Positions 3,001 to 6,000 of a DNA stretch of 64,000 bases are shown here, piece by piece; position 1 is the first letter of the stretch, and every line of letters starts with the position of its first letter. Where the stretch lies: assembly GCF_013167455.1 (NCBI RefSeq), contig NZ_CP038328.1. One strand, 5' to 3'. Source of the stretch: Escherichia coli O157:H7 (GTDB lineage: Bacteria; Pseudomonadota; Gammaproteobacteria; Enterobacterales; Enterobacteriaceae). Made by a program: the position numbers.

Positions 3001-6000
3001 GTGATGCTGGATCGTTACTGGTACGGCCCCTCCAGTCGTATCTCGCCGGAAGCGCCGGTGCCCGTGGTTAAAGTGAATACCATCGAAGAACGTCCGGGCG
3101 GCGCGGCTAACGTGGCGATGAATATCGCTTCTCTCGGTGCTAATGCACGCCTGGTCGGGTTGACGGGCATTGACGATGCAGCGCGCGCGCTGAGTAAATC
3201 TCTGGCCGACGTCAACGTCAAATGCGACTTCGTTTCTGTACCGACGCATCCGACCATTACCAAATTACGGGTACTTTCCCGCAACCAACAGCTGATCCGT
3301 CTGGATTTTGAAGAAGGTTTCGAAGGTGTTGATCCGCAGCCGCTGCACGAGCGGATTAATCAGGCGCTGAGTTCGATTGGCGCGCTGGTGCTTTCTGACT
3401 ACGCCAAAGGTGCGCTGGCAAGCGTACAGCAGATGATCCAACTGGCGCGTAAAGCGGGTGTTCCGGTGCTGATTGATCCAAAAGGTACCGATTTTGAGCG
3501 CTACCGCGGCGCTACGCTGTTAACGCCGAATCTCTCGGAATTTGAAGCTGTTGTCGGTAAATGTAAGACCGAAGAAGAGATTGTTGAGCGCGGCATGAAA
3601 CTGATTGCCGATTACGAACTCTCGGCTCTGTTAGTGACCCGTTCCGAACAGGGTATGTCGCTGCTGCAACCGGGTAAAGCGCCGCTGCATATGCCAACTC
3701 AGGCGCAGGAAGTGTATGACGTTACCGGTGCGGGCGACACGGTGATTGGCGTCCTGGCGGCAACGCTGGCAGCGGGTAATTCGCTGGAAGAAGCCTGCTT
3801 CTTTGCCAATGCGGCGGCTGGTGTGGTGGTCGGCAAACTGGGGACGTCCACGGTTTCGCCGATCGAGCTGGAAAACGCTGTACGTGGACGCGCAGATACC
3901 GGCTTTGGCGTGATGACCGAAGAGGAACTGAAGCTGGCTGTAGTGGCAGCGCGTAAACGTGGTGAAAAAGTGGTAATGACCAACGGTGTCTTCGATATCC
4001 TACATGCCGGGCACGTCTCTTATCTGGCAAATGCCCGCAAGCTGGGTGACCGCTTGATTGTTGCCGTCAACAGCGATGCCTCCACCAAACGGCTGAAAGG
4101 GGATTCCCGCCCGGTAAACCCACTCGAACAGCGTATGATTGTGCTGGGCGCACTGGAAGCGGTCGACTGGGTAGTGTCGTTTGAAGAAGACACGCCGCAG
4201 CGTCTGATCGCCGGGATCCTGCCAGACCTGCTGGTGAAAGGCGGTGACTACAAACCGGAAGAGATCGCCGGGAGTAAAGAAGTCTGGGCCAACGGCGGCG
4301 AAGTGTTGGTGCTCAACTTTGAAGACGGTTGCTCGACCACTAACATTATCAAGAAGATCCAACAGGATAAAAAAGGCTAACCGGAAAGCGGTTCACAGAT
4401 CTCGCTTCGTACATGGCAGGCCTATTGACGCTGTTGTCTTTTCAACCTAGAGTAAAGGAACAAGGGTAAGGGAGGATTTCTCCCCCCTCTGATGAGTTGT
4501 TAGTAAGTCGGGAAACTTAACAGTAACAACACAACCAGTATGATGACGAGCTTCATCATAACCCTTTCCTTCTATAAGGCCCCTTCCTCGGGAGGGGCTT
4601 TCCCGTTTCAGCCCCTTGCTGACTCCCCGATTGTTGATGAGCGCCGGACCCCGCGCAACGCTTTCCCTGAAGCAGTTTTGCCTTCCCCGAGCGGTCACGC
4701 AAAACGCTGCAACGTCCTGAGCATTTGCACCTTTTAGCGGAACGCAGATATAAAAAATCCCCGGCTTTTTGGGCCAGGGATATGTGTTAATGAAACCTTC
4801 TTGACGCTGATTTTTTTTCAACCTAAAGTAAAGGAACAAGGGTGAGGGAGGATTTCTCCCCCCTCTGATTGGCTGTTAATAAGCTGCGAAACTTACGAGT
4901 AACAACACAATCAGTATGATGACGAGCTTCATCATAACCCTTTCCTTCTGTAAGGCCCCTTCCTCGGGAGGGGCTTTCCCGTTTCAGCCCTTTGCTTACT
5001 CCCCGATTGTTGATGAGCGCCGGACCCCGCGCAACGCTTTCCCTGAAGCAGTTTTGCCTTCCCCGAGCAATCACGCAAAACGCTGCAACAGCCTGATCAT
5101 TTGCACCTTTTAGCGGAACGCAGATATAAAAAATCCCCGGCTTTTTGAGCCAGGGATGTTCATAGCTGAAAATTTATTCTACGTTTTCGGCGACGGGAGT
5201 TGTTGGGGTTAAGAGTGAAGTCAATGCAGCCAGTGAGCCGCCTGAAACGCCAATTTCATTGAGCAAGGAGTCAATCAGTGGTGCCTGTGTGCGGTAAGAG
5301 AGTGCGGCTGATAATGCTTGTTCCGCCAGGTTTCCGCCCCCCACATTACCCGTGTTTGCATCCCCCGCAGTACCACCACGATTCAGACCATCGACCTGAA
5401 TAATCTTGATACCGTCAATGGACTTCATTGGTTCCACGGATTTCTCTATTACCGCAGGTAGCGCCTGCAACAAGGCCAGTTTGAATTTAAGGCTGGTTTG
5501 TTCGTCAGAAAGTACGTTGATAGCATCGTTCAGCGCACGTTGTGCTTCTGCTTCCGCCAGGCCTTTTTTACGCGTAGCTTCGGCTAACTCAACGATCGCC
5601 GCCGCCTGCATCTCTGCGGCTTCTTTTTCTGCTTTCGCCCGCACGGTCAGTTCAACCGCTTTGGTTTCTGCATCCTGTGCTGCGGCAATCAGCGCCACCT
5701 GCTTGGCACGATCGGCTTCGGCTGTCTGGCGAGTGGTTTCTACGTTTTGTTGGGCGCTTACTGCTTCTGCGAGTGCAAGGTTAGCACGCGCTTCTGCCTG
5801 GGACTGTTGTTCCGATTTGGCGGCAATAGCGATCGATTTCGTCTGGTTAGCGATTTCGGTGACCTGCTGCTGTTCGATCTCTTTAATGCGAACTTCACGT
5901 TCAGCTTCAACTTTTCTTGAGCGGACGGCCTGTTCGCGGTCGATTTCTGTTTCCTGAATCTGTCGTTCAGCCAGAATTCGCGTCTGCTCTGCTTCACGAC

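What the first reader, a model, noticed from the sequence alone, without database searches (positions are those of the whole stretch)
4750..4790. The Sib/Ibs repeat unit carries a copy of the yqiK terminator hairpin
The hairpin tccccggctttttgggccaggga at ~4755-4783 is duplicated at ~5131-5159, where it lies immediately downstream of the yqiK stop on the minus strand with a T-run. The duplication therefore includes a functional terminator, which would insulate each ibs mRNA and the yqiK transcript from one another.
Basis: seen in the sequence. Interest (0 to 1): 0.2.

Follow-up and report, generated by a model that had tools for sequence, protein, structure and literature searches.

The report
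Duplicated terminator hairpin in sibD/sibE repeat
A textbook transcription-stop hairpin just after the yqiK gene of E. coli was copied together with a small toxin/antitoxin (ibs/sib) cassette, so each toxin gene has a stop signal upstream of it; this is a real, conserved but ordinary feature.

Summary
The window is E. coli O157:H7, hldE–sibE/ibsE–sibD/ibsD–yqiK. A GC-rich hairpin followed by TTTTTTAT lies on the minus strand at 4781-4757 and again at 5157-5133. The second copy starts 16 nt after the yqiK stop codon. The copies differ at one loop-closing base. Both belong to a 376-bp tandem repeat (92% identity) that spans the whole intergenic cassette, from the sib -35 box to within a few bases of the yqiK stop.

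The hairpin is a canonical one-directional intrinsic terminator by sequence. Across five genera its stem and T-run form a conservation island with wobble and compensatory changes. It occurs only at this locus, in 5,424 of 5,426 complete E. coli genomes, once per unit in 1-, 2- and 3-copy arrays. It is absent from the sibA/B and sibC loci and from every yqiK locus that lacks Sib.

The inter-unit copy has no variable stem or T-run position, while about 25% of flanking positions vary, so it is not a decaying passenger. Termination itself is not shown: a published curated K-12 Term-seq list has no 3' end at either hairpin.

Best reading: yqiK terminator plus insulator or backup terminator between the toxin genes. 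This is an ordinary, low-interest finding.

The parts
2947..4380 (+). hldE coding sequence (left flank of the locus)
   Evidence: ORF of 477 aa; annotated as hldE in the matching E. coli records.
4425..4800 (.). Tandem repeat unit 1 (hldE-proximal; sibE/ibsE), 376 nt, including the 19-nt inter-unit junction 4782-4800
   Evidence: Direct repeat family D1 with 376-nt spacing and 92% identity. The same unit occurs once, twice or three times in other strains.
4425..4453 (+). sibE promoter-like site (TTGACG-17-TAGAGT)
   Evidence: Promoter scan; this is the start of the Rfam SIB_RNA model match.
4460..4605 (+). SibE antitoxin RNA (approximate ends)
   Evidence: Rfam RF00113 match 4425-4574, 140.2 bits. 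The +1 is placed by homology to the SibD start used by Han 2010. The 3' end is inferred from the hairpin and T-rich tail read.
4500..4559 (-). ibsE toxin ORF (MMKLVIILVVLLLLSFPTY*)
   Evidence: Translation; same protein as the K-12 ibsE annotation.
4751..4781 (-). Inter-unit terminator hairpin: stem 4781-4757 (9 bp, 7-nt loop) plus T-run 4756-4751. The finding itself.
   Evidence: Terminator scan. Energy -15.3 kcal/mol, z -3.6. Zero variable stem or T-run columns among 9 Escherichia inter-unit copies.
4801..5173 (.). Tandem repeat unit 2 (yqiK-proximal; sibD/ibsD), running up to the yqiK stop codon
   Evidence: Homology of the junction to the stop-to-hairpin spacer.
4801..4829 (+). sibD promoter-like site (TTGACG-17-TAAAGT), 19 nt from the inter-unit hairpin
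   Evidence: Promoter scan.
4836..4981 (+). SibD antitoxin RNA (approximate ends)
   Evidence: Rfam RF00113 match 4801-4950, 147.7 bits. The +1 is the A of ACAAGGGTGAGGG, as in Han 2010's SibD constructs.
4876..4935 (-). ibsD toxin ORF (MMKLVIILIVLLLVSFAAY*)
   Evidence: Translation.
4998..4998 (-). ibsD transcription start (plus or minus 1 nt), placed by homology; the equivalent ibsE start is about 4622
   Evidence: Primer-extension +1 reported by Han 2010 (PMC2943612), read from their T7-ibsD primer and placed on the window sequence.
5127..5157 (-). yqiK-proximal terminator hairpin: stem 5157-5133 (10 bp, 5-nt loop) plus T-run 5132-5127
   Evidence: Terminator scan. Energy -19.1 kcal/mol, z -5.0. 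Conserved downstream of yqiK in five genera.
5174..6835 (-). yqiK (flotillin family) coding sequence; stop codon 5174-5176
   Evidence: ORF of 553 aa; annotation.

Best explanation
Both hairpins are Rho-independent (intrinsic) terminators that act only on the minus strand, which is the strand of yqiK and of the ibs toxin genes.

The copy at 5157-5133 ends the yqiK transcript 16 nt after its stop codon. In doing so it keeps yqiK transcription from running into the ibsD promoter and toxin ORF.

An old tandem duplication copied the entire intergenic cassette: the yqiK 3' UTR with its hairpin, the ibs promoter region, ibs/sib, and the sib promoter. This placed a second terminator at 4781-4757, between ibsD and ibsE. 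The hairpin at the end of ibsD itself has no U-tract. The inter-unit copy is therefore the first canonical terminator downstream of ibsD. It most likely stops ibsD read-through, and any yqiK read-through, before the ibsE promoter and ORF.

What is shown: the sequence anatomy, the strand specificity, the unit boundaries and the conservation.

What is inferred: that RNA polymerase actually terminates there, and that this insulation is the selected function.
For: Terminator anatomy:
- Canonical features are present on the minus strand only: a GC-rich stem of 9-10 bp, a 5-7 nt loop, then TTTTTTAT.
- The U.G wobble at stem position 5 would be a C.A mismatch on the other strand.

Conservation across genera:
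- In Escherichia, Citrobacter, Kluyvera, Phytobacter and an unnamed Enterobacteriaceae genome, the stem and T-run form a conservation island between flanks that cannot be aligned, and the loop varies freely.
- C/T changes opposite G move the wobble pair. One G-C pair becomes G.U and another becomes A-U.

Distribution in E. coli:
- The hairpin is in 5,424 of 5,426 complete genomes, at 9,532 places, and only at this locus.
- There is one hairpin per unit in 1-, 2- and 3-copy arrays.
- The O157-type inter-unit junction is in 3,926 of 5,426 genomes.

Constraint on the inter-unit copy:
- Nine Escherichia inter-unit copies have 0 of 24 variable stem and T-run columns.
- The flanking spacers in the same units have 16 of 64 variable columns.
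- At the flank rate about 6 variable columns were expected, and 0.75^24 is about 0.001.

Other points:
- The duplication is shared with E. albertii and Escherichia sp. E1V33, with the same junction.
- The ibsD-proximal hairpin lacks a U-tract, and the mapped ibsD 3' end lies inside its stem, so that end looks processed rather than terminated.
- ibsC shows the same arrangement: it sits behind serA's own, unrelated terminator.
Against: - No 3' end at either hairpin appears in the curated K-12 Term-seq list for three growth conditions. This may only reflect low yqiK and ibs expression.
- The sibA/sibB tandem array works without any inter-unit terminator, so such insulation is not a general requirement of Sib/Ibs arrays.
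- The conservation sample is small and its sequences are related. Gene conversion between units could also keep the copies alike.
- In Kosakonia sp. S29 yqiK is intact, yet the T-run is gone. yqiK can therefore do without this exact terminator.
Confidence: 0.62

Rival explanations
1. The yqiK-proximal hairpin is the real yqiK terminator. The inter-unit copy is only a passenger of the tandem duplication, has no selected role, and is kept alike by recent origin or by gene conversion between units.
For: - The published ibsD 3' end lies 65 nt upstream of it, and no 3' end is listed at it.
- The sibA/B array has no inter-unit terminator.
- About a quarter of E. coli genomes carry a single unit and so have no inter-unit copy.
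Against: - The duplication predates the split of E. coli, E. albertii and Escherichia sp. E1V33, and the units have diverged about 8%.
- Even so, the inter-unit stem and T-run show 0 of 24 variable columns, against 25% in adjacent spacers, and the only changes are in the loop.
Confidence: 0.25
2. The hairpin's main role is on the opposite (Sib, + in the window) strand. There it would act as a 3'-end-protecting structure for Sib read-through transcripts that Rho terminates nearby.
For: - Adams 2021 supplementary file 2 lists a strong Rho termination region on the Sib strand. Its peak, MG1655 3194538 (-), maps 5 nt past the yqiK-proximal hairpin.
- Coverage there drops from 1130 to 53 without BCM, and goes from 1252 to 1439 with BCM.
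- The + strand between the Sib terminator and the hairpin is C-rich and G-poor, like a rut site.
- The + strand can also fold the hairpin, at -14.4 kcal/mol.
Against: - The conserved T-run lies on the yqiK/ibs-strand side only.
- The conserved U.G wobbles become C.A mismatches on the Sib strand.
- The Rho score comes from 800-nt windows, so its peak is not a mapped 3' end.
Confidence: 0.08
3. The hairpin is a copy of a dispersed repetitive palindrome (a REP/BIME-like or MITE-like element) that happens to sit here.
For: yqiK-hldE spacers that lack the cassette carry REP-like GCCGGATG...CATCCGGC hairpins in the same place.
Against: - In E. coli the hairpin is found only at this locus, at 1-4 places per genome that track the unit copy number.
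- It has no REP consensus.
- It is absent from the other Sib loci.
Confidence: 0.02

Closest known systems
Canonical Rho-independent (intrinsic) terminators of E. coli
   Same: GC-rich 9-10 bp stem, 5-7 nt loop, and a run of six U immediately 3' of the stem. It sits 16 nt after a stop codon. The loop varies while the stem is conserved or compensated.
   Different: No experimental 3' end or termination-efficiency measurement was found for it. It is present in one to three tandem copies because it lies inside a duplicated cassette.
Sib/Ibs type I toxin-antitoxin repeats (QUAD repeats; Rfam RF00113 SIB_RNA; Han 2010 PMC2943612; Fozo 2010 PMC2887945)
   Same: The hairpin lies inside the tandemly repeated sibD/sibE unit and is copied with it. 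Tandem duplication of ibs-sib loci is already described.
   Different: The hairpin lies outside the Sib RNA model, about 180 nt beyond its end. It also lies outside the roughly 300-nt core shared by all five K-12 Sib loci. It is specific to the yqiK-hldE cassette lineage.
serA terminator upstream of ibsC (fau-serA locus)
   Same: Same layout: a co-directional upstream gene, then a strong intrinsic terminator, then about 45-55 nt, then the conserved TTTGCG(A/T)G motif, then the ibs promoter and ibs.
   Different: The hairpin sequence is unrelated (AACGGGCAGGTCACTGACTTGCCCGTT), and that locus is single-copy in K-12.
sibA/sibB tandem array (yegL-mdtA)
   Same: Two ibs/sib units in tandem on the same strand.
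   Different: The unit is 332 nt. There is no canonical terminator between the units, and no co-directional gene lies upstream.

Membership tests
Intrinsic (Rho-independent) terminator | GC-rich stem-loop with a stable predicted fold | tested here: met
   9 and 10 bp stems, 6 G-C pairs each. Energies -15.3 and -19.1 kcal/mol; 0 of 200 shuffles fold as well.
Intrinsic (Rho-independent) terminator | U-tract immediately 3' of the stem on the transcribed strand | tested here: met
   TTTTTTAT follows both stems on the minus strand. No T-run follows on the plus strand.
Intrinsic (Rho-independent) terminator | Lies downstream of a transcription unit of the same orientation | tested here: met
   Copy 2 starts 16 nt after the yqiK stop. 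Copy 1 starts 94 nt after the ibsD stop and 65 nt after the published ibsD 3' end.
Intrinsic (Rho-independent) terminator | RNA 3' ends map to the U-tract, or termination is shown in vitro | tested here: inconclusive
   The curated K-12 Term-seq list (PMC7815308) has no 3' end at either site. The supplements of other 3'-end studies were not held. yqiK and ibs may be too weakly expressed to give a listed end.
Intrinsic (Rho-independent) terminator | Structure conserved in evolution (stem kept by wobble or compensatory changes, loop free to vary) | tested here: met
   15 distinct orthologous or paralogous hairpins: the 3' arm and T-run are near-invariant, C/T changes occur opposite G, and one G-C pair becomes A-U. 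One mismatch occurs in E. albertii.
Bidirectional intrinsic terminator | A-tract before and U-tract after the stem, so that both strands see hairpin plus U-tract | tested here: not met
   The plus strand has AAAAAA before the stem but no T-run after it (tatgtg / tgttca). The scan calls only the minus strand.
Sib RNA / Ibs toxin type I TA locus (Rfam RF00113) | Covariance-model match to SIB_RNA with an antisense 18-19 aa ibs ORF | tested here: met
   147.7 and 140.2 bits against a gathering score of 56. The ibs ORFs translate to IbsE and IbsD. The hairpin itself lies outside the model match.
Sib/Ibs repeat core shared by all Sib loci | Sequence present in all five K-12 Sib units | tested here: not met
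   The hairpin is absent from the sibA, sibB and sibC units. Homology among the five units ends at TTTGCG(A/T)G, about 55 nt short of the hairpin.
REP/BIME dispersed palindromes | Many dispersed copies per genome with the REP consensus | tested here: not met
   1-4 places per genome, all consistent with unit copy number at this one locus.

The most novel reading that the evidence does not exclude
The hairpin may not be 'yqiK's terminator that got copied'. It may instead be an integral upstream boundary element of the sibD/E-type toxin-antitoxin cassette. On this reading it is an insulator that is gained, lost and duplicated together with the toxin gene, selected because it prevents read-through expression of the toxin, and merely used by yqiK.

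Points in favour:
- It is present in 12 of 12 yqiK loci with Sib and in 0 of 22 without. Eight of those 22 keep yqiK-hldE synteny.
- In the one locus where ibs is a pseudogene (Kosakonia sp. S29), the T-run has decayed although yqiK is intact.

Point against resolving it:
- The block that is present or absent also includes the last 20 or so codons of yqiK, so ownership cannot be resolved from these data.
Probability: 0.35. Interest if true: 0.3.

Novelty: new member of a known kind. Interest (0 to 1): 0.15.

Why it matters
The consequences are modest.
- It defines the true unit of the sibD/sibE duplication as the whole intergenic cassette, including the yqiK 3' UTR.
- It shows that each ibs toxin gene at this locus sits behind a conserved strong terminator.
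- That is a sensible safeguard for a gene whose unrepressed expression is toxic, and it is relevant when engineering or deleting these loci.
- It does not change how terminators or type I toxin-antitoxin systems are understood.

Tried and rejected
- Searched the other K-12 Sib loci (sibA/B, sibC) for the hairpin and found none. The hairpin is therefore not part of the general Sib repeat.
- Tested the dispersed-repeat idea with a 43-nt search of 5,426 E. coli genomes. It is found only at this locus.
- The weak Rfam hits over the hairpins (NsiR1, E = 0.4; GadY, E = 0.89) fall below gathering score and were treated as chance resemblance to terminators.
- Rejected the bidirectional-terminator idea because there is no T-run on the + strand.
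- Literature search for direct 3'-end evidence. Adams 2021 lists nothing at the hairpins. The TERMITe supplements have no entry. Supplements of Dar & Sorek 2018, the 3'-UTR-valve paper and the Rend-seq annotation paper are not held. Fozo 2008 is not held.
- The MAFFT alignment A1 put two hairpins with 8-nt loops out of register. Pair changes were therefore read by hand instead of using count of structure pairs.
- I first assumed the Adams supplement sequences end at the 3' end. Consistency between the two strands showed they run from -50 to +10, and the coordinates were recomputed accordingly (and reasoning).
- Tried to decide from indel boundaries in Citrobacter and Phytobacter whether the hairpin 'belongs' to yqiK or to the cassette. 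The replaced block runs from about 60 nt inside yqiK to the hldE stop codon, so the question stays open.
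Full report
**What the region is.** A 793-nt stretch covering the finding is 100% identical to E. coli O157:H7 chromosomes.
- hldE is 2947-4380 on the + strand, and yqiK (a flotillin-family protein) is 5174-6835 on the - strand.
- Between them lie two Rfam SIB_RNA matches on the + strand: 4425-4574 at 140.2 bits and 4801-4950 at 147.7 bits.
- Antisense to these are two 19-codon ibs ORFs on the - strand. The ORF at 4500-4559 has the K-12 IbsE sequence, and the ORF at 4876-4935 has the K-12 IbsD sequence.
- This is therefore the known sibE/ibsE-sibD/ibsD tandem type I toxin-antitoxin locus.

**The observation.**
- The + strand sequence tccccggctttttgggccaggga is 4758-4780, and tccccggctttttgAgccaggga is 5134-5156.
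- The consensus scan calls both as terminator-like on the minus strand only. The stems are 4781-4757 (9 bp, loop 7) and 5157-5133 (10 bp, loop 5). Each is followed by TTTTTATATC, which with the last stem T makes TTTTTTAT.
- Minus-strand folds are -15.3 and -19.1 kcal/mol, with z-scores of -3.6 and -5.0. None of 200 shuffles folds as well.
- The single difference between the copies, G4772 versus A5148, is at the loop-closing position.
- Copy 2 starts 16 nt after the yqiK stop codon.
- The + strand can form a weaker version (-14.4 kcal/mol, with a C.A mismatch where the minus strand has U.G) but has no T-run after it. The element is therefore one-directional.

**The repeat unit.**
- The two hairpins are in register within a 376-nt tandem repeat of 92% identity.
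- Other strains carry one unit (AVS0662, L003), two units (K-12, L001) or three units (EL361, L002). Each unit has exactly one hairpin.
- The left edge of the unit is the sib -35 box (TTGACG at 4425 and 4801).
- At the right edge, the common junction (ATGTGTTAATGAAACCTTC, 4782-4800) resembles nothing obvious.
- A second junction variant, found in strains 2021CK-01784 and FFFEB2, reads TTTC-T-CTAT-CCC-ACATCCC in yqiK sense. The O157-type yqiK 3' UTR reads TTTC-AA-CTAT-GA-ACATCCC.
- The copied segment therefore reaches to within 2-3 nt of the yqiK stop codon. The unit is the whole intergenic cassette and includes the complete yqiK 3' UTR.
- The duplication, with the same junction, is shared with E. 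albertii and Escherichia sp. E1V33. It is therefore old, and single-copy E. coli strains are probably secondary losses.

**Distribution.**
- In 5,426 complete E. coli genomes, the 43-nt hairpin region is found in 5,424 genomes at 9,532 places. The median is 2 and the maximum is 4, with no hint of other loci.
- The O157-type junction is in 3,926 genomes, and 15 of them have two junctions.
- About three quarters of E. coli genomes therefore carry two or more units.
- The hairpin is absent from the K-12 sibA/sibB and sibC units. Homology among the five units stops at a conserved TTTGCG(A/T)G motif, about 55 nt short of the hairpin.
- The sibA/B array has no canonical inter-unit terminator.
- ibsC sits behind serA's own, unrelated terminator in the analogous position.

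**Other genera.** A scan of species-representative genomes with YqiK returned 36 loci.
- Every locus with a Sib match downstream of yqiK (12 loci) has the homologous hairpin right after yqiK. These are Escherichia spp., Citrobacter youngae CCUG 30791, Citrobacter sp. FP75, Kluyvera sichuanensis, two Phytobacter species, Klebsiella spallanzanii, Kosakonia sp. S29 and an unnamed Enterobacteriaceae genome.
- A 13th locus, E. whittamii, has the hairpin, but its contig ends before Sib.
- None of the 22 loci without Sib has the hairpin. These include 8 that keep yqiK next to hldE, where REP-like GCCGGATG...CATCCGGC hairpins fill a short spacer instead.
- Between Citrobacter or Phytobacter loci with and without the cassette, homology breaks about 60 nt inside the yqiK 3' end and resumes exactly at the hldE stop.
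- The yqiK tail, the hairpin and the sib/ibs cassette therefore vary as one block. These data cannot say whether the hairpin 'belongs' to yqiK or to the cassette.

**Evidence that the structure is selected.**
- In a 12-sequence alignment from the yqiK stop to the ibs ATG across five genera, TCCCTGGCC...AAAGCCGGGGA-TTTTTTAT is a conservation island. The stop-to-hairpin spacer on one side (16-44 nt) and the spacer on the other side cannot be aligned.
- Among 15 distinct hairpins, the loop varies at nearly every position.
- The 5' arm shows C/T exchanges opposite G (CCCTG, CCTCG, CCCCG). These keep pairing only on the yqiK/ibs strand.
- Stem position 7 goes from G-C to G.U in Klebsiella spallanzanii and to A-U in Kosakonia. 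E. albertii has one mismatch.
- Among nine Escherichia inter-unit copies, none of 24 stem and T-run columns varies. By comparison 2 of 8 loop columns and 16 of 64 flanking spacer columns vary.
- At the flank rate about six variable columns were expected, and 0.75^24 is about 0.001. This is a rough figure, because the sequences are related and gene conversion is possible.
- The yqiK-proximal copy is actually the more variable one, with 4 of 8 variable 5'-arm columns, mostly wobble-compatible.
- The inter-unit copy is therefore not decaying.

**Experimental context from papers.**
- Han et al. 2010 (PMC2943612) mapped the ibsD +1 by primer extension. They used a 163-nt ibsD RNA that ends at the hairpin complementary to the Sib 5' stem-loop, and noted that ibs mRNA ends were not well defined. 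On the window, the ibsD +1 is about 4998 and the ibsE +1 about 4622. Each terminator hairpin therefore lies about 130-160 nt upstream of the ibs start of its own unit.
- Adams et al. 2021 (PMC7815308) list a K-12 ibsD 3' end at 3194855 (+), and processed SibD and SibE 3' ends at 3194756 and 3195129 (-).
- Their supplement sequences run from -50 to +10 around each end. I deduced this by requiring the two strands to agree. This places the ibsD 3' end inside the 3' arm of the U-tract-less hairpin, at about window 4846. That is 10 nt from the SibD +1 (4836) and 65 nt before the inter-unit terminator stem. It looks like a processed end, not a termination site.
- No curated 3' end is listed at either terminator hairpin. 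Termination there is neither shown nor refuted.
- On the opposite (Sib) strand, their BCM experiment gives a strong Rho termination region. Its peak, 3194538 (-), maps 5 nt beyond the yqiK-proximal hairpin. Coverage there drops from 1130 to 53 without BCM, and goes from 1252 to 1439 with BCM.
- The + strand between the Sib terminator and the hairpin is C-rich and G-poor (C 0.32-0.37, C/G 1.3-2.1). Read-out on the Sib strand thus appears to be handled by Rho, which fits the hairpin being one-directional.

**Mechanism proposed.**
- Shown: the anatomy, the strand specificity, the unit boundaries and the conservation.
- Inferred: the hairpin at 5157-5133 terminates yqiK and shields the ibsD promoter and ORF from upstream transcription. 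The copy at 4781-4757 terminates ibsD read-through, and any residual yqiK read-through, after it has crossed the sibD promoter. It thereby shields ibsE.
- A toxin gene is a plausible beneficiary. In Kosakonia sp. S29 the ibs ORF is frameshifted and has lost its stop, Sib scores only 64.7 bits, and the hairpin keeps its stem but has lost the T-run, although yqiK is intact. This is a single case and is suggestive only.

**Rivals.**
- The inter-unit copy is a neutral passenger. I give this about 0.25. The conservation argues against it.
- The hairpin's main role is on the Sib strand as a 3'-end protector. I give this about 0.08. The position of the T-run and the wobble pairs argue against it.
- The hairpin is a dispersed palindrome. 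This is rejected.

**Comparison and novelty.**
- By every sequence criterion the element is a member of the intrinsic-terminator class. The one defining feature that could not be confirmed is an experimentally mapped 3' end.
- It is not part of the Sib RNA family model, nor of the core repeat shared by all Sib loci.
- Tandem duplication of ibs-sib loci is already described (PMC2887945).
- I did not find three points stated in the papers I could read: that the sibD/E unit includes the yqiK 3' UTR and terminator, that the hairpin co-occurs strictly with the cassette across genera, and that the inter-unit copy is constrained. All three are small refinements.

**Verdict.** The feature is real and well conserved.

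Noticed in passing
window 4696-4704 and 5072-5080 (+ strand CACGCAAAA, which is TTTTGCGTG on the ibs strand): A short motif about 75 nt upstream of the ibs transcription start. It is conserved across five genera and appears as TTTGCGAG in the K-12 sibA, sibB and sibC units. It is followed at 17 nt by AAAACT or AAAAAT. It could be a second promoter or a binding site.
   Followed up: partly
window about 5162 (+ strand); equals MG1655 3194538 (-): A published Rho-termination peak (Adams 2021, supplementary file 2) on the Sib strand maps 5 nt beyond the yqiK-proximal hairpin. With BCM, read-through into antisense yqiK rises about 27-fold. The + strand at 4606-4756 and 4982-5132 is C-rich and G-poor, like a rut site.
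   Followed up: partly
window about 4846 (- strand); equals MG1655 3194855 (+): The published Term-seq 3' end of ibsD falls inside the 3' arm of the U-tract-less hairpin, 10 nt from the SibD 5' end (4836). This suggests processing, perhaps of the duplex, rather than termination.
   Followed up: partly
L036 4200-4470 (Kosakonia sp. S29): The ibs ORF is a pseudogene (frameshift after the ATG, stop codon lost) and Sib scores only 64.7 bits. The upstream hairpin keeps its stem, with a compensatory G-C to A-T change, but has lost its T-run.
   Followed up: partly
L032 about 4430-4553 (Klebsiella spallanzanii): An insertion of about 125 nt, resembling an ERIC-type repeat, separates the ibs Shine-Dalgarno region from the intact ibs ORF.
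   Followed up: no
L038 about 4300-4345 (Citrobacter sp. FP75): A 32-nt deletion removes the part of the ibs 5' UTR that encodes the Sib terminator on the other strand, yet Sib still scores 143.9 bits.
   Followed up: no
window 5158-5235; L001 1378-1450; L008/L010, L013/L018, L038/L039: The last 20 or so codons of yqiK and the stop-to-hairpin spacer are polymorphic. Within E. coli, K-12 ends ...EEKAE* and O157 ends ...AENVE*. In Citrobacter and Phytobacter genomes without the cassette, the whole block from the yqiK tail to the hldE stop is replaced by REP-like hairpins.
   Followed up: partly
window 4369-4393 (- strand): A weak terminator-like hairpin (5 bp, AACCGCTTTCCGGTT then AGCCTTTTTT) overlaps the hldE stop codon on the ibs strand. 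It could be the equivalent backup stop for ibsE. hldE itself has no T-run after this hairpin on its own strand.
   Followed up: no
L042 and L043 inter-unit junction; rows 2021CK_u2 and FFFEB2_u2: A second inter-unit junction variant exists (GGTTTCTCTATCCCACATCCC in yqiK sense). The count of 3,926 genomes with the O157-type junction is therefore a lower bound for multi-copy arrays.
   Followed up: partly
L042 (strain 2021CK-01784) yqiK-proximal hairpin: A natural T-to-C change inside the T-run (GGGGATTCTTTAT) of the yqiK-proximal terminator. Strain Ecol_545 has an A-to-G change in the loop next to the 3' arm. These are ready-made variants for testing termination.
   Followed up: no
L006-L039, about 1.6 kb upstream of yqiK on the opposite strand: An FMN riboswitch (RF00050, about 120 bits) is conserved upstream of the yqiJK region in all enterobacterial loci retrieved. 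This is an expected neighbouring feature, unrelated to the finding.
   Followed up: no
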